Notes under the pieces: model-generated
Told to the model about the DNA's origin: nothing
Database searches by the model: none
Seen by the model: the letters and a program-made list of their open reading frames with translations, nothing else
Assembly: GCA_024641665.1 (NCBI GenBank)
Contig: JAHECP010000002.1
Coordinates: 28,775-92,774 of the forward strand
DNA length: 64,000 nt
Direction of reading: 5' to 3'
Source: Acidobacteriota bacterium
GTDB lineage: Bacteria; Acidobacteriota; Vicinamibacteria; Vicinamibacterales; JAHECP01
Part shown: in pieces, positions 1 to 52,018 of the stretch
How the letters are laid out: each line of letters opens with the position of its first letter
Numbering within the stretch: the first letter of the stretch is position 1
Position numbers and translations under genes: made by a program

Positions 1-1719
1 CAGGATCTTCCGGACGTTGCGCAGGAGCGTCTCGTCGTCGACCGGCTTGTCGAGGTAGCCCTCCGGCGGGCGCACCGCGCGGTCGTAGATCAGCCGGCGG
101 AGCTCGGGCCGGCCCGTGATGATGCAGACCGGGACGTCGGTCAGCGTGTCGTCGCGCCGGAGTGCCTCGAACACCATGCCGCCGTCGGTGCCGGGCATCG
201 ACAGGTCGAGCGTGACCAGGTCGGGCTTCTCGCGCCGGGCGAGTGCGAGCGCCGTCTCGCCGTCGGCCGCCTCGACGACGGTCGCGCCGTGGTCCTCGAG
301 CACCGAGCGATAGAACACCAGCACGTCGGGCTCGTCGTCGACGACGAGGATCCGGCGACCGGCCAGGCTGGGCGCCGGACGGCCCGCCGCGGCCGGGACG
401 GCGACGCGGGCCGGCACGACGGCGGCGGTGGCGACGAGGTTCACCAGCTGCGTGACCTGCATATCGAGCTTGTAGTGGCGGATCAGGTCGCTCAGGCCGT
501 CCACGCAGTTGTGGCAGGAGGTCACGACCACCTTCGCGCCGGTGGCCGCGAGCTGCTCGGCCTTGACCCGGGCCGACTTCAGGCGCCGCGGCGTGTACTC
601 CGACATGGACATCGCGCCGCCACCGCCCGTGCAGCAGTAGTTCTCGGATCGGTTGGGGTACATCTCGCGAAAGTCGGTGACCACCAGGTCCAGCAGCTCG
701 CGCGGCTCCTCGTACAGGCCGCAGCTCCTGGCGTTGTTGCACGAGTCGTGGAAGGTGACGGGTGTCGTGTTGCGGCTCTTGTCGACCGTGATGCGCCCCT
801 CCCGGATGTAACGCAGCATGGTGAGGACCGAGCTCTCCATCTCGAAGGGCACGTCCATGCCGGCCCAATTCGGCCCCTCGCAGCGGGTGGATCGGTAGCC
901 GTGCCCGCACTCCGAGATGACCAGCTTGCGGCCCCTGAGCTCCACCACCTTCTCGTACAGCCGGCGGGCCACCGCGCCGCCCAGGTCGTCGTCGCCCGAG
1001 AACAGCCCGAAGTTCGTCATGTCCCAGCCCTCGCTGGGCATGGTCCACGACTCGCCGGCGAGGTGGAAGATCTTCGCCGCGTCGGCGATCGTCCGCGGGT
1101 CGTACTTCACCTCCCGCGGGTTGATGGCGTAGACGACGTCGGCGTCCGCGACGTCCACCGGAATGACGGCCGTCGGGTCCTCCAGCTCGGCGCTCAGCTC
1201 CTCCGACATCCACTCGAGCGTGTCGAGGTACTCCTCCTTCAACACGCCCATCTGGTTGCCGATCTCCCACTGGTCCTTGCTGACGACGGCCACCCCCTCC
1301 GGCATGACGCCCACCGACACGAGCAGGCCGCGCATCATGCGGTTGGCGGTGGCGAAGTCGACGCCCATCGGGCAGTTGATGGAGCACCGGCGACAGTTCG
1401 TGCACTTGCCGAACGCGACGTCCTTGAGCTCCTCGAGGTCCGCGTCCGTGTACACGCTGGCCGCGCCCACCCACCACGGGAAGACGCGGCCCGTCCAGTC
1501 GAAGTGCCGCTTGAAGATCTTCCGGATCCGATCCGCCTTGTAGGCCGGAGCGTAGGTGGGATCGTCCGGGTTGGTCTGCACGTAGTGACACGACGAGGTG
1601 CACAGGCCGCAGTGGACGCAGGCCGCGAGCGACCCGGCGATCTGCCGGTTGAGCTTCTTCGACATCCGGTCGATGACCCGCGCCGCCTTCTGCGATCTGA
1701 CGGGAGTGGCGTTCAGCAC
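1..1719 (-). CDS. HdrD/DsrK/GlpC-like Fe-S oxidoreductase (two ferredoxin-type Cys clusters plus CCG-type Cys motifs) fused in frame to a C-terminal response-regulator receiver domain; the C-terminus runs off the left edge
   Basis: My own reverse translation. It is absent from the ORF track because no stop lies inside the window. N-terminus: (V)LNATPVRSQKAARVIDRMSKKLNRQIAGSLAACVHCGLCTSSCHY. Further motifs: CTNCRRCSINCP, ECGHGY, FHDSCNNAR, NYCCTGGGG, TSCHNC. A linker AAVVPARVAVPAAAGRPAPSLAG follows, then RRILVVDDEPD...LDLSMPGTDG...CIITG...YLDKP. I checked codons 301-540 and found no in-frame stop. The GTG at 1719 has GGAG 6 nt upstream; ATG at 1665 is an alternative start. Confidence 0.8.
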   Translation of the reverse strand, partial: MLNATPVRSQKAARVIDRMSKKLNRQIAGSLAACVHCGLCTSSCHYVQTNPDDPTYAPAYKADRIRKIFKRHFDWTGRVFPWWVGAASVYTDADLEELKDVAFGKCTNCRRCSINCPMGVDFATANRMMRGLLVSVGVMPEGVAVVSKDQWEIGNQMGVLKEEYLDTLEWMSEELSAELEDPTAVIPVDVADADVVYAINPREVKYDPRTIADAAKIFHLAGESWTMPSEGWDMTNFGLFSGDDDLGGAVARRLYEKVVELRGRKLVISECGHGYRSTRCEGPNWAGMDVPFEMESSVLTMLRYIREGRITVDKSRNTTPVTFHDSCNNARSCGLYEEPRELLDLVVTDFREMYPNRSENYCCTGGGGAMSMSEYTPRRLKSARVKAEQLAATGAKVVVTSCHNCVDGLSDLIRHYKLDMQVTQLVNLVATAAVVPARVAVPAAAGRPAPSLAGRRILVVDDEPDVLVFYRSVLEDHGATVVEAADGETALALARREKPDLVTLDLSMPGTDGGMVFEALRRDDTLTDVPVCIITGRPELRRLIYDRAVRPPEGYLDKPVDDETLLRNVRKIL

Positions 1720-2459
1720 GTGGGACTCCGTTCGGGGCGGCGGTGCGCGTCCGCCGCGAGGACGCGGCGTCCCTCGACCGCCGCGGACGCGGGTCCTCGG
1801 CGAATCGGATAGACGCCGCGGTGCGTCAACGTCCGGCCCAGGTAGTACCGGGTGAACGGGTAGTAGAGGTAGTGCGAGATCTTGCTGAACGGCACGTAGA
1901 GCAGGAAGAACGCCGTCATGAAGAAGTACGCGAGCAGGATCGGCTCGTTCGTCTCCGGACGGTTGGGCGCCGCGAGCACGGCCAGCAGGAACCACACGGT
2001 CAGCAGCGCAAGCGAGAAGTAGTCATCCGGCGTGCTGATGGCGCGCATCGTCGGCTGGGAGAGCCGGCGGTAGAAGCGCATGAGCCCCACCACGAACGCG
2101 GCGCCGATCACGCCCTCGAAGCCGAACACGAGGGCCCGCGAGTCGAGCCAGTGGGGCGCGTACGGAATGACGAAGGAGAGCAGGATGGCGGCCGTCACGC
2201 CGAGGTGGAACACCACGAACTGCGCGTAGAGCCCGGCCTGCGTGCGCGTGCTCTCCATGGCCCAGGGCATCCCGACGTTGAGCCACGAGTAGAGAAGGCC
2301 CCTGGCCATGGCCGGCGGCCGGGACCCGGTGGGCGCCTGCCGGTCGCGGCCGGCCCGGAACCGGAAGAGCCACACGAGGCGCAGCGCGTAGACGGAGGCC
2401 ATGACCGCCAGCGCGGTCTCCTGAAGCCGGTGTTCGGCGAAGTGCAGCAGCTCACTCAT
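1713..2459 (-). CDS. polytopic membrane protein, NarI/DsrM/HdrE-like (putative quinone-interacting cytochrome b subunit)
   Basis: Track ORF of 248 aa. It has several hydrophobic helices with His-containing segments (FAEHRL, VVFHLGV, SKISHYLYYPF). Its stop overlaps the GTG of the downstream HdrD/DsrK-like gene (GTGCTGA). A membrane subunit plus CCG Fe-S subunit is the DsrMK/HdrED-type arrangement. Confidence 0.6.
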   Translation of the reverse strand: MSELLHFAEHRLQETALAVMASVYALRLVWLFRFRAGRDRQAPTGSRPPAMARGLLYSWLNVGMPWAMESTRTQAGLYAQFVVFHLGVTAAILLSFVIPYAPHWLDSRALVFGFEGVIGAAFVVGLMRFYRRLSQPTMRAISTPDDYFSLALLTVWFLLAVLAAPNRPETNEPILLAYFFMTAFFLLYVPFSKISHYLYYPFTRYYLGRTLTHRGVYPIRRGPASAAVEGRRVLAADAHRRPERSPTC

Positions 2460-3051
2460 GGGGTGTTCCTGTCGCGGCCCCCGCCGGCGTCGGGGCCAGC
2501 GCCGCCAGCCGCGTCTCGAACGCCGCGTGCTCGCGCGCGTCGTTCGCGCAGAGGATGACGTCGCGAATGCCGGTGCGGTTCGAGAGATACGACGCGATCG
2601 TCGAGACCATCAGCTCCGCGCACACCGGCAGCGGAACGCCGTAGAAGCCCGCGCCCATGGCCGGAAACGCGATCTGGACGATGCCCCGCTCCTCGGCGCG
2701 CTCGAGCGCGCGAACGATGGTGGCGCGCAGCTTGTCCTGCAGGTCCTCCTCCTGGAAGACCGGACCCGCCGCGTGCACGATGCGCCGGGCCTTCAGGTCG
2801 CCGCCGGCGGTGACGACGGCCTCGGTCGGGGCGATCGGGCCGAGCCCGTCCAGCTCCTTCTTGATCGTGGGCCCGCCCCGCCGCGCGATGGCGTTGCCGA
2901 AGCCGGACCCGAGCGCCAGGTCCGGCCGGGCGTAGAACACGAACGCTTCCACGTCGAGCGTCGTGATGTCCGCCTTGACGAGGCGGAGGACGCTTCGATG
3001 GACTAAGACACCTTCCCCTCCGTCGGGTCCCCCGGCATCGATATCAGCCAA
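2452..3051 (-). CDS. macro-domain protein (ADP-ribose / O-acetyl-ADP-ribose binding or hydrolase family)
   Basis: Track ORF of 199 aa. Macro-like blocks: VKADITTLDVEAFVFYA, GSGFGNAIARRGG, VVTAGGDL, IVHAAGP, IAFPAMGAGFYG. It uses a TTG start. It overlaps the upstream small ORF by 8 nt and the downstream membrane gene by 8 nt (ATGAGTGA). Confidence 0.75.
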   Translation of the reverse strand: MADIDAGGPDGGEGVLVHRSVLRLVKADITTLDVEAFVFYARPDLALGSGFGNAIARRGGPTIKKELDGLGPIAPTEAVVTAGGDLKARRIVHAAGPVFQEEDLQDKLRATIVRALERAEERGIVQIAFPAMGAGFYGVPLPVCAELMVSTIASYLSNRTGIRDVILCANDAREHAAFETRLAALAPTPAGAATGTPHE

Positions 3052-3268
3052 CGCCCTGCTCCTTGTCGTCCCAGACGCCCGAGTCCTTGTGCAGCTGGAT
3101 TTCCTGTTCGGCGAGGTGGCGAAGCTTGTAGGCCGAGTCCCGCAGCGTGCCGAAGAGCACGCCGCAGCTCGAGTCGAACCGCGTCTCGTCGCCCCGATCG
3201 GCCAATAGCATCATGTCGCGCGACAGGCGGAGCACCTTGACGATGTTGCGGTTGCAGGGCCGTGCCAC
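3044..3268 (-). CDS. small hypothetical protein (about 74 aa), first gene of the cassette
   Basis: Same frame as track ORF 3044..3307. I prefer the GTG at 3268 because GGGAGG lies 4 nt upstream and the track start at 3307 falls inside the candidate sigma-54 promoter. Sequence: VARPCNRNIVKVLRLSRDMMLLADRGDETRFDSSCGVLFGTLRDSAYKLRHLAEQEIQLHKDSGVWDDKEQGVG. I recognise no family. Confidence 0.45.
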   Translation of the reverse strand: MARPCNRNIVKVLRLSRDMMLLADRGDETRFDSSCGVLFGTLRDSAYKLRHLAEQEIQLHKDSGVWDDKEQGVG

Positions 3269-3302: not shown

Positions 3303-3318
3303 GGCACGGACCGTGCCG
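3303..3318 (-). promoter_or_regulatory. candidate sigma-54 (-24/-12) promoter
   Basis: The minus strand reads CGGCACGGTCCGTGCC. GG and GC are 12 nt apart, as in TGGCAC-N5-TTGC. It lies 100-240 nt downstream of a cluster of TGTAACG motifs and directly downstream of a sigma-54 activator gene. The predicted TSS near 3292 sits upstream of the SD and GTG at 3268. Confidence 0.45.

Positions 3319-3541: not shown

Positions 3542-3546
<5 letters not shown>
3419..3546. promoter_or_regulatory. candidate enhancer (UAS): four TGTAACG/CGTTACA half-sites
   Basis: CGTTACA at about 3419, TGTAACG at about 3469, TGTTACG at about 3492, CGTTACA at about 3540. One arrangement is TGTAAC-N17-GTTAC. All lie between the activator gene stop and the sigma-54 promoter candidate. 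Confidence 0.35.
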
Positions 3547-5296
<1,750 letters not shown>

Positions 5297-49950: not shown

Positions 49951-50224
49951 ACGGGGGGCTTTTTCCCCGGCCTGCGGCATTCTCCCCAGCCCGCACGGGC
50001 CCGTTTTCGCGTCGAGAATCCGGCAAACCCTCCGCCTCAGTCGCATCCATGGCCGAAAATTCGAGGTTTTCCGGCCCCGGACCCCTGGCACCATCATTGC
50101 TCCGACGGGGGTCGACCGCTGGTTCAGATTCCGCTTCACGTCCGGCGCACGGGACGTCCGCGCGCGGCGCCAAGCGAGGCGGCGGGCCCGATCGGGCCCA
50201 CTCCGACGCGGGGCAGACGGCATT

Positions 50225-52018
50225 ATGAGCACCGAACGACAGGATTTGACGATCGGCATGGCAGGCTCGGGCGGCGACGGCGTCGTCTCGGCCGGCGACT
50301 CGCTCATCACGGCACTGGCGCTCGAGGGCTACTACGCCATCGTGGCCAAGAGCTTCGGGTCCCAGATCCGCGGCGGCGAATCGTCGTTCCGGCTGCGCGT
50401 GTCCACCGAGGAGGCCCTCAACATCGGCGGGACGCTCGACATCGCGGTCGCCCTGAACTGGGAGGACTTCCTCCGCTTCGGCAGCGAGCTGCCCGTCGAC
50501 GGCACGTCGACGGTCATCTACGACGAGAAGACCGGCGTGGCGCCCGACAAGGTCCCGCTCGCGGTACAGCCCGCCCAGGTGGTGGCGGTGCCGATCGAGG
50601 CCATGGCCAAGGAGCACGCGGGCACCGAGAAGGCGAAGAACACGATCGTGCTCGGCCTGATGGCCGGCTGGTGCGGGCTGGCGCGCGCGAGCATCGTGGC
50701 GGGACTGCGGAAGCGGTTCAGCAAGAAGGGCCCGGAGCTGGTCGCCGCCAACGAGCGCGCGTTCGAGGCCGGGATCCTGTTCGCCGAGGCGCACCCGCTG
50801 CGCCAGTCGCTCGCCATGGCGCCGCCGGCCGAGAAGCGCGCCAAGCTGCTCACCGACGGAAACGAGATCGTCGGCGCCGCCGCGATCTTCGCCGGCTGCG
50901 AGTTCTTCGCGGGCTATCCCATCACGCCCTCCACCGAGGTCATGCAGTTCATGACCCGCGAGATCTGGAAGTACGGCGGGGCGGTCGTGCAGTTCGAGGA
51001 CGAGATCGCCAGCGTCGGCGCGTGCGTGGGCGCGTCGTTCGCGGGCAAGAAGGTCATGACCGTCAGCTCGGGCCCGGGCATGTCGCTCAAGTCCGAGATT
51101 CTCGGCCTGGCCACGATCGCCGAGCTGCCGCTCGTGGCCGTCGACGTCCAGCGCGGCGGGCCCTCCACGGGCCTCCCGACCAAGGGCGAGCAGTCGGACG
51201 TGTTCCAGGCGATCTTCTCGGCGCACGGCGACGTGCTGCGCCCCGTGCTCGCCGCGCGCAGCGTCCGCGACCTCTTCGGCGTGACGGTCGAGGCGTTCAA
51301 CATCGCCGAGCAGTACCAGACGCCGGTGATCCTGCTCTCGGACGGCGAGCTCGGCCAGCGCAAGGAGACCTTCGACCCGATCGACACCTCGCAGTTCCGC
51401 CTGGTCGAGCGGCGCCGGCCATTCGACAAGGAGCTCGACGGCTACGTGCGTTTCCGGCTGACCGAATCGGGCATCAGCCCGCTCAGCCAGCCCGGGATGA
51501 AGGGTGGCAACTACCTCGCGTCGGGCATCGAGCACAACGAGGCGGGCGCGCCGACGGCCAAGGGCGAGGTCCACGCCCGGATGAACGAGAAGCGCTTCAA
51601 GAAGCTCCTGCCGCTCAAGGCGCGACGCGACCTCTTCCACATCGAAGGCGACGCCGACGCGCCGATCGGGATCGTGAGCTGGGGCTCGGTGGCGGGCGTG
51701 GCGCTCGAGGCGCTGCGGATGGCCCGGAAGCAGGGCGTCCGCGCCAAGCTGCTCGTCCCGACGCTCATCTACCCGGTGCCCGAGGACGTCTACCAGGACT
51801 TCTTCGCGTCGGTCGAGCGCGGCTTCGTGCTCGAGCAGTCGCACCAGGGACAGTTCTACCGCGTGCTCCGGATGTTCGTCGACGTGCCCCGCGGCGTGAC
51901 GTCGATTGCGCGCAGCGGATCGAACCCCTTCCTGCCGAAGGAAGTGGCCTTCAAGCTGCGCGACCTCGCGCGCGAAGTGCAGCAGGCGCTGGCGCCGGAG
52001 CTGCAGGCCCAGGAATGA
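50225..52018 (+). CDS. korA: 2-oxoacid:ferredoxin oxidoreductase alpha subunit (fused gamma-alpha type, KorA-like)
   Basis: Track ORF of 597 aa. Blocks: GSGGDGVVSAG, KSFGSQIRGGES, GYPITPSTE, QFEDEIASVGA, GPGMSLK. Confidence 0.9.
   Translation: MSTERQDLTIGMAGSGGDGVVSAGDSLITALALEGYYAIVAKSFGSQIRGGESSFRLRVSTEEALNIGGTLDIAVALNWEDFLRFGSELPVDGTSTVIYDEKTGVAPDKVPLAVQPAQVVAVPIEAMAKEHAGTEKAKNTIVLGLMAGWCGLARASIVAGLRKRFSKKGPELVAANERAFEAGILFAEAHPLRQSLAMAPPAEKRAKLLTDGNEIVGAAAIFAGCEFFAGYPITPSTEVMQFMTREIWKYGGAVVQFEDEIASVGACVGASFAGKKVMTVSSGPGMSLKSEILGLATIAELPLVAVDVQRGGPSTGLPTKGEQSDVFQAIFSAHGDVLRPVLAARSVRDLFGVTVEAFNIAEQYQTPVILLSDGELGQRKETFDPIDTSQFRLVERRRPFDKELDGYVRFRLTESGISPLSQPGMKGGNYLASGIEHNEAGAPTAKGEVHARMNEKRFKKLLPLKARRDLFHIEGDADAPIGIVSWGSVAGVALEALRMARKQGVRAKLLVPTLIYPVPEDVYQDFFASVERGFVLEQSHQGQFYRVLRMFVDVPRGVTSIARSGSNPFLPKEVAFKLRDLAREVQQALAPELQAQE

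What the first reader, a model, noticed from the sequence alone, without database searches (positions are those of the whole stretch)
1..460. Catalytic Fe-S subunit reads straight into a response-regulator receiver (ORF missing from the supplied track)
The minus-strand frame carrying ...TSCHNCVDGLSDLIRHYKLDMQVTQLVNLVATA continues without any stop through a Pro/Ala linker. I checked each codon in 301-540. It then enters RRILVVDDEPDVLVFYRSVLEDHGATVVEAADGETALALARREKPDLVTLDLSMPGTDG...CIITG...YLDKP, which has all the canonical acidic pocket, Thr and Lys residues. Receiver domains fused to the C-terminus of an HdrD/GlpC-type enzyme are unusual. The fusion implies that phosphorylation controls the redox enzyme, or the reverse. 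The protein continues beyond the window edge, so further domains may follow.
Basis: seen in the sequence. Interest (0 to 1): 0.6.

Follow-up and report, generated by a model that had tools for sequence, protein, structure and literature searches.

The report
Receiver-fused membrane redox enzyme subunit
The gene is real: an iron-sulfur redox enzyme subunit carries a two-component "receiver" switch at its end, sits in a conserved operon with its own sensor kinase in uncultured bacteria from many named lineages, and has not been studied in anything I could find.

Summary
**Observation: confirmed.** Window 1719..1 (minus strand) is one 573-codon frame. It contains two [4Fe-4S] motifs, an SECGH motif, one CCG domain, a 23-residue Pro/Ala linker, and then a canonical receiver.

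- The protein stops 3 residues past the window edge (576 aa). No further domains follow.
- The "orphan kinase" exists. A cytoplasmic PAS-PAS histidine kinase and a second, stand-alone receiver lie immediately downstream.

**The fusion is not an assembly artefact.** All 85 fetched loci keep both parts in one frame, and 239 of 240 listed database clusters (two searches that may overlap) carry the receiver. These come from MAGs labelled Acidobacteriota, Zixibacteria, Calditrichota, Ignavibacteria, Planctomycetota, Gemmatimonadota, Syntrophales and others. The catalytic part is 78-89% identical to the window's, although gene GC3 ranges from 0.27 to 0.96.

**Conserved cassette:** Macro domain, five-helix NarI-like membrane protein, fusion, kinase, and usually a receiver.

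**Relatives.** The nearest unfused relatives (42-43% identity) sit beside DsrC or are fused to it. The catalytic part scores below all NCBIfam cut-offs for HmcF, TmcB and DsrK.

**Best reading (inferred):** a membrane-anchored oxidoreductase of the DsrMK/HmcEF/TmcCB type, presumably quinone-linked, whose catalytic subunit is the phospho-acceptor of its own two-component system.

Substrate, signal and direction of control are unknown. I rate it a new variant of a known kind, of moderate interest.

The parts
1..360 (-). Receiver (REC) domain of the fusion protein, residues 454-573. The last 3 residues (EVT) and the stop lie just outside the window.
   Evidence: Pfam Response_reg scores 71.9 bits, E 5.9e-20. 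D461, D462, D505 and K558 are invariant and position 535 is T in 72 and S in 10 of 82 family members. The AF2 model shows a (beta-alpha)5 fold that matches DivK, RR468, PhoB and FrzS receivers at rmsd about 2 A. The C-terminus was read in L001.
361..429 (-). Pro/Ala/Val-rich interdomain linker, residues 431-453.
   Evidence: There is no stop and GC3 is 0.97. It is the least conserved segment: mean column identity 0.56, against 0.87 for the catalytic part and 0.75 for REC. The span from QLVNL to DDEPD varies from 27 to 64 residues but is always in frame. pLDDT is below 50 for residues 439-448.
430..1719 (-). Catalytic Fe-S/CCG part of the fusion protein, residues 1-430, with a GTG start at 1719.
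   Evidence: NCBIfam scores: HmcF 341 bits, TmcB 312, DsrK 229, all below the equivalog cut-offs. Pfam finds Fer4_8 and CCG. It is 78-89% identical across the other 84 loci. The best solved-structure match is M. smegmatis EtfD, 9ojn.
1372..1620 (-). Two ferredoxin-type [4Fe-4S] motifs: C34-x2-C37-x2-C40-x3-C44 and C106-x2-C109-x2-C112-x3-C116.
   Evidence: All eight Cys are invariant in 82 of 82 sequences.
901..915 (-). S269-E-C271-G-H273 motif. This is the xECGH catalytic-cysteine motif of DsrK, HmcF and TmcB.
   Evidence: The motif is invariant in alignment A1. Its significance is taken from bioRxiv 10.1101/2023.08.03.551783.
505..759 (-). The single complete CCG domain, residues 321-405: C327...C362-C363-T-G...C402-x2-C405. 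It is the presumed site of a noncubane [4Fe-4S] cluster.
   Evidence: Pfam CCG E 3e-11. C327, C362, C363, C402 and C405 are invariant, and C333 is at least 90% conserved.
1713..2459 (-). Membrane subunit (248 aa), NarI/HmcE/TmcC-like. It overlaps the fusion gene by 7 nt.
   Evidence: NCBIfam HmcE E 6e-13 and TmcC E 7e-13, both below cut-off. Pfam Nitrate_red_gam is weak. It has five hydrophobic segments. Only H85 and H196 are conserved (79/80 and 80/80). hhalign (probability 57.6%, E 1e-4) places H85 opposite NarI H56. H196 sits in PFSKISH, which matches NarI PFSRLIH (H205) by eye, outside the aligned stretch. The gene lies about 0.73 kb upstream of the fusion in every locus with room.
2452..3051 (-). 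Macro-domain protein (199 aa). It overlaps the membrane gene by 8 nt.
   Evidence: Pfam Macro E 6e-23. The nearest solved relatives are a PARP14 macro domain, TTHA0132, YmdB-type deacetylases and macroH2A1.1. It is present about 1.25 kb upstream in essentially every locus with room.
3044..3268 (-). Small conserved ORF (74 aa) with one invariant Cys in an SCG motif. It occurs in 24 of the 85 loci and accompanies every sigma54-activator locus.
   Evidence: tblastn gives 57-83% identity in 24 loci, and the 22-sequence alignment has many invariant columns. It has no Pfam or NCBIfam hit.
3303..3317 (-). Sigma54-type -24/-12-like element GGCACGgtccGTGCc, 49 nt upstream of the small ORF.
   Evidence: It is unique in the window. 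Elements fitting GGYWYR-N5-TGCW lie 48-58 nt upstream of the small ORF in 12 further loci, and at -91 in two. It is a consensus match only and is weaker than the canonical TGGCAC-N5-TTGCW.
3542..5296 (-). Sigma54-dependent activator (584 aa) with an N-terminal ArsC/LMW-phosphatase-like domain, a Cys-rich PAS domain, an AAA+ domain and an HTH. It is the likely transcriptional regulator of the cassette in this lineage.
   Evidence: NCBIfam NifA/NtrC-type hits, with arsC_pI258_fam over residues 4-129. Pfam finds LMWPc, PAS and Sigma54_activat in orthologues. It is the upstream neighbour in 16 of 62 loci.

Best explanation
**What it is (shown by sequence).** Window 1..1719 (minus strand) encodes all but the last 3 residues of a 576-aa protein. 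It is the cytoplasmic iron-sulfur catalytic subunit of a two-subunit, membrane-anchored oxidoreductase of the DsrMK/HmcEF/TmcCB (HdrED-like) type. The subunit has:
- two ferredoxin-type [4Fe-4S] motifs;
- the xECGH cysteine;
- one complete CCG motif, the presumed site of a noncubane [4Fe-4S] cluster.

Its partner is the five-helix NarI-like protein encoded immediately upstream. That partner keeps only two conserved His residues, matched to the proximal-heme ligands of NarI. A flexible linker of roughly 20-60 residues joins the catalytic subunit to a canonical, phosphorylatable receiver domain.

**How it most likely works (inferred).**
1. The soluble PAS-PAS histidine kinase encoded 43 nt downstream senses a cytoplasmic redox-type signal. 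Each of its PAS domains carries conserved cysteines.
2. The kinase phosphorylates Asp505 of the tethered receiver, and also the paralogous stand-alone receiver.
3. The phosphorylated receiver changes its contact with the CCG domain or with a partner protein. This switches electron flow between the membrane subunit (presumably the quinone pool, by analogy with DsrMK) and a cytoplasmic thiol/disulfide-type substrate on or off.

On this reading the enzyme itself is the output of the two-component system, because the cassette contains no DNA-binding regulator.

**Unknown.** The substrate, the role of the always-present Macro-domain protein and the sensed signal.
For: **Single ORF and domains:**

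**Independent assemblies:** an identical second assembly. All 85 loci have one ORF. 120 of 120 listed clusters and 119 of 120 carry REC.

**Catalytic residues:** every Fe-S and CCG Cys and the SECGH motif are invariant.

**Receiver residues:** D461, D462, D505, T/S535 and K558 are conserved, with Y555 at the aromatic-switch position.

**Operon:**
- Macro, membrane gene, fusion and kinase sit at fixed spacing in every locus with room, and a stand-alone REC follows in about two thirds.
- Genes overlap or lie within 43 nt of each other, with no sigma70-like promoter inside and terminator-like hits no more frequent than in shuffled sequence.
- The kinase has an invariant H254 and an intact HATPase domain.
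- The fused and free receivers are paralogues, 45% identical.

**Membrane partner:** five hydrophobic segments with H85 and H196 matched to NarI H56 and H205.

**Strong purifying selection rather than recent transfer:** the catalytic part is 78-89% identical while gene GC follows host GC (r = 0.96) and GC3 spans 0.27-0.96.

**Relatives point to thiol/disulfide chemistry:** the nearest unfused relatives lie next to DsrC, or carry DsrC at the same C-terminal position.
Against: - No biochemical, genetic or expression data exist, and no member comes from a cultured organism in the lists I saw.
- The catalytic part scores far below the equivalog cut-offs of HmcF, TmcB and DsrK.
- The cassette has no periplasmic cytochrome c partner and no DsrJOP. 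DsrC is adjacent in only 1 of 62 loci. Disulfide or trisulfide reduction is therefore an analogy, not a finding.
- The closest solved fold, EtfD, does not have a thiol substrate as far as I know (its function is from my own knowledge).
- The membrane subunit lacks the two His that ligate the distal heme near the quinol site in NarI, so quinone coupling is not assured.
- Sequence cannot decide the direction of control (kinase to enzyme, or enzyme to signalling).
- The AF2 model (pLDDT 76.8, pTM 0.55) gives no usable information on docking between REC and the catalytic part.
Confidence: 0.5

Rival explanations
1. **The redox module is the sensor, not the output.** The NarI-like and Fe-S/CCG proteins equilibrate with the quinone pool or a thiol redox couple. 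Their redox state then changes how well the tethered receiver accepts or holds phosphate, or binds the kinase. This partitions phosphoryl groups between the fused receiver and the stand-alone receiver, which carries the output, in a phosphate-sink or DivK-like allosteric arrangement.
For: - There are two paralogous receivers for one kinase.
- Both receivers best match the single-domain DVU0259/DivK-type family in NCBIfam.
- The kinase has no membrane segment and the cassette has no DNA-binding output.
- The upstream regulators are varied redox-type sensors: an ArsC-like/PAS sigma54 activator, Cys-rich MerR, Rrf2 and a two-CW protein.
Against: - About one third of loci with room lack a stand-alone receiver directly after the kinase, so the fused receiver can be the only acceptor there.
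- The catalytic part is more conserved than any signalling part, with 39% of columns invariant against 16% in REC. That fits a demanding catalytic job, although it does not exclude sensing.
- The kinase has its own Cys-rich PAS sensors.
Confidence: 0.27
2. **The enzyme acts on the kinase.** The receiver serves mainly as a docking handle that holds the kinase at the membrane. The CCG site then reduces or oxidises the four-cysteine sites of the kinase PAS domains. This would couple kinase activity enzymatically to the quinone pool, achieving with an enzyme what quinones do directly to ArcB and RegB (their mechanism is from my own knowledge).
For: - PAS2 of the kinase has four invariant Cys (C136, C166, C177, C180), and PAS1 has three Cys conserved in 70 of 73 sequences.
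- In a relative at 43% identity, the same C-terminal position is occupied by DsrC, the substrate of DsrK-type enzymes. So this tether position can hold something that visits the active site.
- The cassette encodes no other obvious thiol substrate.
Against: - A C-x10-C-x2-C pattern plus a fourth Cys looks more like a metal or Fe-S site than a disulfide switch.
- There is no solved or characterised homologue of these PAS domains.
- The idea is entirely inferential.
Confidence: 0.1
3. **The receiver is a pseudo-receiver.** It would be a structural, dimerisation or localisation domain that is never phosphorylated.
For: Non-phosphorylated receivers such as FrzS are among the structural matches.
Against: All five signature positions of a phosphorylatable receiver are conserved across 82 sequences. 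A kinase gene with an intact H-box always follows.
Confidence: 0.08
4. **The fusion is an artefact.** A sequencing or assembly frameshift, or a missed stop in the linker, would have joined two separate genes, with the receiver starting at an internal ATG.
For: A stop-free 23-codon linker is expected by chance in 70% GC DNA (p = 0.63), and long spurious ORFs abound in this window.
Against: - An independent assembly is identical.
- All 85 loci from other genomes, with GC from 39% to 69%, keep one ORF.
- 239 of 240 listed clusters carry the receiver. The one exception is a 3.3-kb contig with an aberrant C-terminus close to the contig end.
- The proposed ATG (Met420) lies inside the conserved end of the catalytic part.
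Confidence: 0.01

Closest known systems
HmcE/HmcF and TmcC/TmcB, the cytochrome b plus HdrD-like Fe-S subunits of the Hmc and Tmc transmembrane complexes of Desulfovibrio
   Same: - They give the best NCBIfam matches for both subunits: HmcF 341 bits and TmcB 312 bits for the catalytic part, and HmcE and TmcC at E about 1e-13 for the membrane part.
- They share one complete CCG motif and the T/G-ECGH cysteine.
- Regulator genes are encoded beside hmc: rrf1 and rrf2 in D. vulgaris, and a response regulator in S. carbinolicus. That rrf1 is a response-regulator-type gene, and that DVU0259 lies next to tmc, is from my own knowledge and was not verified here.
   Different: - Scores are less than half of the equivalog cut-offs.
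- The cassette has no periplasmic multihaem cytochrome c (HmcA or TmcA) and no other Hmc or Tmc subunits.
- The receiver is covalently fused.
- A Macro-domain gene and a dedicated kinase are always present.
- The hosts are mostly not sulfate reducers.
DsrMK module of DsrMKJOP (menaquinol:DsrC-trisulfide oxidoreductase)
   Same: - It has the same two-subunit logic: a NarI-type membrane protein plus a cytoplasmic subunit with two [4Fe-4S] clusters and a single CCG motif with the ECGH cysteine.
- The nearest unfused relatives of the window protein sit in DsrC, membrane gene, CCG-protein clusters, or are fused to DsrC.
   Different: - The DsrK model scores 229 bits against a cut-off of 400.
- The membrane subunit keeps only one of the two His pairs of the dihaem DsrM/NarI type.
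- DsrC is not part of the cassette; it is adjacent in 1 of 62 loci.
- The C-terminal position that carries DsrC in relative P0131 carries a receiver here.
EtfD of Mycobacterium smegmatis (PDB 9ojn)
   Same: It is the only solved structure with significant sequence and fold similarity to the catalytic part (E 2.7e-13 by sequence; Foldseek E 1.2e-13). It is also a membrane-bound HdrD-like Fe-S protein.
   Different: - Identity is about 20%.
- EtfD is a single polypeptide with its own membrane domain.
- It has no receiver.
- Its electron partner is the electron-transfer flavoprotein (from my own knowledge), which shows that this fold is not tied to disulfide substrates.
HdrED heterodisulfide reductase of methanogens
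   Same: It has the same overall architecture: a membrane cytochrome b plus a cytoplasmic ferredoxin/CCG subunit.
   Different: HdrD has two complete CCG motifs and therefore two noncubane clusters. Here the first is degenerate and only C271 and C280 remain.
Response regulators with enzymatic partner domains (CheB, PleD, PorX) and single-domain DivK/DVU0259-type receivers
   Same: - The receiver has the canonical fold and residues.
- The closest matches are single-domain or enzyme-linked receivers: DivK, RR468, PleD, FrzS and the DVU0259 family.
   Different: - The receiver is C-terminal to the enzyme rather than N-terminal.
- The partner is an Fe-S redox subunit of a membrane complex, for which I found no described case.
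- It scores below the DVU0259 family cut-off, 79.7 against 160.

Membership tests
DsrK/HmcF/TmcB-type single-CCG Fe-S subunits (HdrD-like) | Two canonical ferredoxin-type [4Fe-4S] binding motifs | tested here: met
   C34, C37, C40, C44 and C106, C109, C112, C116 are invariant in 82 of 82 sequences. Pfam Fer4_8 E 5.7e-11.
DsrK/HmcF/TmcB-type single-CCG Fe-S subunits (HdrD-like) | Exactly one complete CCG motif, CXnCCGXnCX2C | tested here: met
   C327...C362-C363-T-G...C402-x2-C405 is invariant, with CCTG in place of CCG. Pfam finds one CCG stretch, E 3e-11. The N-terminal half keeps only C271 and C280.
DsrK/HmcF/TmcB-type single-CCG Fe-S subunits (HdrD-like) | Conserved catalytic Cys in a T/G-ECGH motif | tested here: met
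   S269-E270-C271-G272-H273 is invariant in A1. The motif is described. Ser replaces Thr or Gly at the first position.
DsrK/HmcF/TmcB-type single-CCG Fe-S subunits (HdrD-like) | Score above the curated NCBIfam equivalog cut-off of HmcF, TmcB or DsrK | tested here: not met
   341 against 750, 312 against 735 and 229 against 400. It is a separate subfamily, not an orthologue of any of the three.
DsrK/HmcF/TmcB-type single-CCG Fe-S subunits (HdrD-like) | Adjacent NarI-type membrane cytochrome b partner | tested here: met
   A five-segment membrane protein overlaps the start of the fusion gene. It scores E about 1e-13 against HmcE and TmcC, and is present in all loci with room.
Hmc, Tmc or DsrMKJOP complexes | Periplasmic cytochrome c or the DsrJOP module encoded with the MK-type pair | tested here: not met
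   The conserved cassette holds only Macro, membrane gene, fusion, kinase and receiver. No such genes appear in the five loci read with Pfam neighbour annotation or in the census.
DsrMK | Association with DsrC, the substrate | tested here: not met
   DsrC is directly upstream in only 1 of 62 loci (L079). It is adjacent or fused only in relatives at 42-43% identity. Whether DsrC is encoded elsewhere in these genomes was not tested.
DsrK/HmcF/TmcB-type single-CCG Fe-S subunits (HdrD-like) | Noncubane [4Fe-4S]3+ EPR signal and quinol-dependent reduction | not testable with these tools
   This needs purified protein.
NarI/DsrM dihaem cytochrome b | Five transmembrane helices | tested here: met
   There are five hydrophobic segments by Kyte-Doolittle with a 19-residue window.
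NarI/DsrM dihaem cytochrome b | Four conserved His ligating two haems b | tested here: not met
   Only H85 (79/80) and H196 (80/80) are conserved. hhalign (probability 57.6%) places H85 opposite NarI H56. H196 matches NarI H205 through the PFS[KR]xxH motif by eye. The positions of NarI H66 and H187 hold no conserved His. At most one bis-His haem is predicted.
Response regulator receiver (CheY-like, PF00072) | Profile match above the gathering score | tested here: met
   71.9 bits against 30.2.
Response regulator receiver (CheY-like, PF00072) | Acidic pocket (DD), phospho-acceptor Asp, Thr/Ser and Lys | tested here: met
   D461, D462, D505 and K558 are invariant. Position 535 is T in 72 and S in 10 sequences.
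Response regulator receiver (CheY-like, PF00072) | Phosphotransfer from a cognate histidine kinase | not testable with these tools
   There is genomic evidence only. A kinase with invariant H254 lies immediately downstream in every locus with room.
DVU0259/DivK-type receiver family (NF045717) | Score above the curated cut-off | tested here: not met
   It is the best NCBIfam receiver hit but scores 79.7 against 160. The stand-alone receiver scores 100.2 against 160.
HdrD | Two complete CCG motifs | tested here: not met
   Only one is complete.

The most novel reading that the evidence does not exclude
The five-gene cassette (Macro, mono-haem NarI-like protein, Fe-S/CCG-receiver, Cys-rich PAS kinase, receiver) could be a previously unrecognised signalling device found across many bacterial lineages. 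In it, a respiratory-type membrane oxidoreductase would itself be a two-component element. The kinase would gate an electron valve between the quinone pool and a cytoplasmic thiol or protein substrate within seconds, or the quinone-pool state would be read enzymatically and passed to a phosphorelay. The Macro-domain protein would tie this to ADP-ribose or NAD+ signalling. This would be direct post-translational control of a membrane redox complex by Asp phosphorylation, for which I know no described example.
Probability: 0.3. Interest if true: 0.75.

Novelty: new variant of a known kind. Interest (0 to 1): 0.55.

Why it matters
**What is unusual.** As far as I know, respiratory-type membrane redox modules such as Hdr, Dsr, Hmc and Tmc are described as regulated at the level of transcription. 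Here the catalytic subunit is wired directly into a two-component system, and this wiring is extremely well conserved:
- The catalytic part is 78-89% identical across genomes whose GC3 runs from 0.27 to 0.96.
- At least 533 stretches from species-representative genomes encode a relative.
- The MAGs carry labels from at least eight lineages, most of them not sulfate reducers.

**What it would mean.** If phosphorylation gates the enzyme, this is a fast post-translational switch on electron flow between the membrane and cytoplasmic thiol chemistry. If the enzyme is the sensor, it is a new enzymatic way of reading the quinone or thiol redox state.

**Testability.** Either reading is directly testable with four purified proteins.

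**Annotation.** NCBI labels these proteins simply 'response regulator', which hides the enzyme. JGI labels them 'Fe-S oxidoreductase', which often hides the receiver.

**Side question.** The invariable Macro-domain partner raises an open question about a link to ADP-ribose.

Tried and rejected
**Literature.** Five full-text searches found no paper on the fusion or the cassette. They covered HmcF plus response regulator; heterodisulfide reductase plus receiver domain plus fused; DsrK plus DsrM plus response regulator; DVU0259; and response regulators plus output domains plus Fe-S oxidoreductase. One search was wasted on the ambiguous term 'tmc'. The Pereira 2011 comparative-genomics paper is not held. 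The claim that DVU0259 lies beside the tmc operon therefore stays as my own recollection.

**Cultured host.** I looked for one in two protein searches and the genome scan. Every named hit is a MAG.

**Unfused member of the clade.** The only candidate, P0323, sits on a 3.3-kb contig. Its sequence departs from the family just after the last CxxC and stops about 110 nt before the contig end. I treat it as ambiguous.

**Other leads that gave nothing:**
- Cluster look-up yielded no names.
- The AFDB fold library was not available.
- A PDB sequence search with the kinase PAS region found nothing.
- The AF2 output does not expose interdomain contacts, so docking of REC on the CCG domain could not be assessed.

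**Considered and rejected:**
- The receiver as a thiol substrate of the CCG site. Its only conserved Cys (C532) lies in beta-strand 4 of the model, a position I expect to be buried.
- The Macro protein as a thiol substrate. It has no conserved Cys.
- TGGCACGGCCCTGCA at the start of the small ORF as a sigma54 promoter. The GG-to-GC spacing is one base short of the TGGCAC-N5-TTGC consensus. The element at the position shared with other loci is 3303-3317.


Full report
**1. The observation**

The minus-strand frame from the GTG at 1719 to base 1 is 573 codons without a stop. GC3 is 0.90-1.00 in each 30-codon block, including the linker block at 0.97.

Pfam finds three domains:
- Fer4_8, residues 31-120;
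- one CCG domain, residues 321-405;
- Response_reg, residues 457-569, at 71.9 bits against a cut-off of 30.2.

An open frame by itself means little here. With 70% GC, a 23-codon linker stays open by chance with p = 0.63. The window also holds 36 stop-free segments of at least 573 codons, including the antisense ORF 289-1812. The case therefore rests on independent sequences.

**2. The fusion is real, and it ends at the window edge**

The protein database holds the identical protein, P0001, at 576 aa. A Logan assembly of run SRR12825371 (L001) is identical to the window over 4193 nt. It shows the end ...RKILEVT followed by TAG, three codons beyond the edge. No further domains follow.

The 'internal ATG' is Met420 at 460-462. 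It lies inside the conserved end of the catalytic part.

Three searches show how widespread the fusion is:
- All 120 best clusters (77-100% identity) carry PF00072.
- A second search, seeded with the most divergent full-length member (P0121, 57% identical over the catalytic part), gave 119 of 120 with the receiver. The exception is a 3.3-kb contig with an aberrant C-terminus close to the contig end.
The best 80 (73-85% identity) all cover query residues from about 1-8 to 563-576.

In all 85 loci held, the catalytic and receiver parts lie in one ORF. The linker varies in sequence and in length. The QLVNL-to-DDEPD span is 27-64 residues, and it is always in frame.

**3. What the protein is**

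The catalytic part gives its best NCBIfam matches to HmcF (341 bits), TmcB (312) and DsrK (229). All three are far below the equivalog cut-offs.

It has the features that a recent DsrMKJOP study lists for this group:
- two ferredoxin [4Fe-4S] motifs;
- a single CCG motif;
- the catalytic Cys in an xECGH motif.

In 82 family members all eight ferredoxin Cys and the CCG Cys C362, C363, C402 and C405 are invariant. C327 and the SECGH motif are invariant in the 32-sequence alignment A1.

The only solved relative is M. smegmatis EtfD, PDB 9ojn. The AF2 model has a mean pLDDT of 76.8 and a disordered linker.

The receiver has invariant D461, D462, D505 and K558, and Thr or Ser at 535. Y555 sits three residues before the Lys, at the aromatic-switch position (assignment from my own knowledge of CheY). 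Its fold matches DivK, RR468, PhoB and FrzS receivers. I conclude that it is a canonical, phosphorylatable receiver.

**4. Surroundings**

*Upstream, inside the window.* A 248-aa membrane protein (1713-2459) overlaps the fusion gene by 7 nt.
- It matches HmcE and TmcC at E about 1e-13.
- It has five hydrophobic segments.
- Only two His are conserved. hhalign places H85 opposite NarI H56, and H196 sits in PFSKISH, which resembles NarI PFSRLIH (H205).
- In E. coli NarI, H56 and H205 ligate the proximal haem (from my own knowledge). The positions of the distal pair, H66 and H187, hold no conserved His. I therefore predict a mono-haem variant.

Before it lies a Macro-domain gene (2452-3051).

*Downstream, outside the window.* A soluble PAS-PAS-HisKA-HATPase kinase (483 aa) and a 137-aa stand-alone receiver follow. 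That receiver is 45% identical to the fused one.

*Census.* Across the 85 loci:
- Macro, membrane gene, fusion and kinase sit at fixed spacing wherever the contig has room.
- The free receiver follows in about two thirds of loci.

*The kinase.* It has an invariant H254. Its PAS2 domain has four invariant Cys, and PAS1 has three Cys conserved in 70 of 73 sequences.

*Operon structure.* No sigma70-like promoter was found inside the cassette, and terminator-like hits were no more frequent than in shuffled sequence.

*Upstream regulators.* They differ by lineage:

| Regulator | Loci (of 62) |
|---|---|
| Sigma54 activator with ArsC/LMW-phosphatase-like and Cys-rich PAS domains, plus a 74-aa ORF | 16 (the window's type) |
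| Excisionase-type HTH with a Cys-rich domain | 10 |
| MerR with a Cys-rich tail | 8 |
| Rrf2 | 3 |
| Two-CW-domain protein | 1 |

In the window, a sigma54-type -24/-12-like element lies at 3303-3317. That is the same distance upstream of the small ORF as in 12 other loci.

**5. Evolution**

Mapped to one full-length representative per 50%-identity cluster, the fused clade collapses to a single member. The next relatives are 35-43% identical and carry no receiver. Three examples:
- P0129 lies in a DsrC, membrane gene, CCG-protein cluster.
- P0131 carries a DsrC domain at the same C-terminal position and is followed by another DsrC.
- P0162 is fused to its NarI-like partner.

Within the clade, identity to the window is:

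| Component | Identity |
|---|---|
| Catalytic part | 78-89% |
| Receiver | 57-80% |
| Kinase | mostly 55-74% |
| Membrane subunit | 50-72% |
| Macro | mostly 44-73% |

Gene GC tracks host GC (r = 0.96) and GC3 spans 0.27-0.96. The genes are therefore long resident in their hosts, and the protein is under very strong purifying selection. Recent horizontal spread does not explain the conservation.

The MAG labels include Acidobacteriota (the best match is Vicinamibacterales, probably the window's own group), Zixibacteria, Calditrichota, Ignavibacteria, Planctomycetota, Gemmatimonadota, Syntrophales/Thermodesulfobacteriota, Armatimonadota and Kapabacteria. All named hits are MAGs.

**6. Mechanism**

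*Shown by sequence.* The gene encodes a DsrK/HmcF/TmcB-like catalytic subunit with intact cofactor and catalytic residues. It is paired with a NarI-like membrane protein, tethered to an intact receiver, and always accompanied by a kinase.

*Inferred, best reading (about 0.5).* The kinase phosphorylates Asp505, and this gates electron transfer between the membrane subunit or quinone pool and a cytoplasmic thiol-type substrate. The enzyme is the output, since the cassette has no DNA-binding regulator.

*Rivals:*
- The redox module is the sensor, and the two receivers compete for phosphate (about 0.27).
- The CCG site acts on the Cys-rich PAS domains of the kinase, with the receiver as a docking handle (about 0.1).
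- The receiver is a pseudo-receiver (about 0.08).
- The fusion is an artefact (about 0.01).

The substrate, the signal and the role of the Macro protein are unknown.

Several points count against a simple 'DsrMK' label:
- the sub-threshold family scores;
- the absence of cytochrome c or DsrJOP partners;
- DsrC adjacent in only 1 of 62 loci;
- the missing distal-haem ligands;
- the EtfD precedent for a non-thiol partner (from my own knowledge).

**7. Comparison and novelty**

The module works most like the MK-type modules of Dsr, Hmc and Tmc. Regulator genes lie next to hmc: rrf1 and rrf2 in D. vulgaris, and a response regulator in S. carbinolicus. Both receivers here best match the DVU0259 family. 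This suggests an old association between this enzyme type and single-domain receivers, which has become covalent in this clade.

It is not an orthologue of any named family. Public annotations say only 'response regulator' or 'Fe-S oxidoreductase/CheY-like'. I found no paper on it.

**Verdict.** It is a real feature and a new variant of a known kind. Interest is moderate at 0.55. It would be higher if direct phospho-control of a membrane redox complex were demonstrated.

Noticed in passing
window 3542-5296 (-): A sigma54-dependent activator whose N-terminus is an ArsC/LMW-phosphatase-like domain (CSGNGGRS P-loop; arsC_pI258_fam E 5e-29). It is followed by a PAS domain with a Cys cluster (CHEVFPERFCGGDCPFC). 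This is an unusual sensor combination that suggests thiol, arsenate or redox sensing.
   Followed up: partly
window 3044-3268 (-): A 74-aa ORF with no family match. It is conserved at 57-83% identity in 24 loci and accompanies every sigma54-activator locus. It has a single invariant Cys in an SCG motif and could be a partner or substrate of the cassette.
   Followed up: partly
window 3303-3317 (-): A sigma54-type -24/-12-like element, GGCACGGTCCGTGCC, 49 nt upstream of the small ORF. Comparable elements lie 48-58 nt upstream in 12 other loci, and at -91 in two.
   Followed up: partly
window 2452-3051 (-): A Macro-domain gene is an invariable first gene of the cassette in all lineages. Its closest solved relatives include ADP-ribose binders (a PARP14 macro domain, macroH2A1.1) as well as deacetylases. 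The usual NAAN and GGGVD motif positions read YARPD and GFGNA, so hydrolytic activity is uncertain. I found no explanation for its link to a redox module.
   Followed up: partly
L001 4249-5700 (+), just left of the window: The kinase PAS domains each carry a PC...CYxxY...CxxC pattern. Four Cys are invariant in PAS2, and three Cys in PAS1 are conserved in 70 of 73 sequences. This may be an Fe-S or metal site. The PDB holds no homologue detectable by sequence.
   Followed up: partly
window 1713-2459 (-): The NarI-like membrane subunit keeps only two conserved His, matched to the proximal-haem ligands of NarI (H56 and H205). The distal pair is absent, which suggests a mono-haem variant of the family.
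   Followed up: yes
L087 2019-3668 and L086 5031-7353: Relatives of the catalytic part at 42-43% identity are either fused C-terminally to a DsrC domain and followed by a second DsrC, or sit in a DsrC, membrane gene, CCG-protein cluster.
   Followed up: partly
L034, L050, L084 (upstream of the cassette): Other lineages use alternative regulators, and all have Cys-rich 'CW'-type sensor regions: an HTH with a two-CW domain (NF045718), MerR with a Cys-rich tail, and an excisionase-type HTH with a Cys-rich domain.
   Followed up: partly
L004 12655-15182 (-): In one Deltaproteobacteria MAG a second, unfused NarI-like plus Fe-S/CCG gene pair lies convergently, just downstream of the cassette.
   Followed up: no
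window 289-1812 (+): A 507-aa antisense ORF overlaps the fusion gene. Its Arg/Gly/His-rich translation looks like a high-GC artefact, and the window has 36 stop-free segments of at least 573 codons.
   Followed up: yes
window 50086-50101 (+): A perfect sigma54 consensus, TGGCACCATCATTGCT, lies about 125 nt upstream of a 2-oxoacid:ferredoxin oxidoreductase gene (50225-52018). One such match is expected by chance in about half of shuffled windows.
   Followed up: no
window 12161-41223: The rest of the window looks like ordinary chromosome: a dicarboxylate symporter, a PrpD-like gene, kdpA and kdpB, a BNR/sortilin-repeat protein and a glutamate synthase domain protein. None of the ten large ORFs scanned across the window was a dsr or other sulfur-metabolism gene.
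   Followed up: partly
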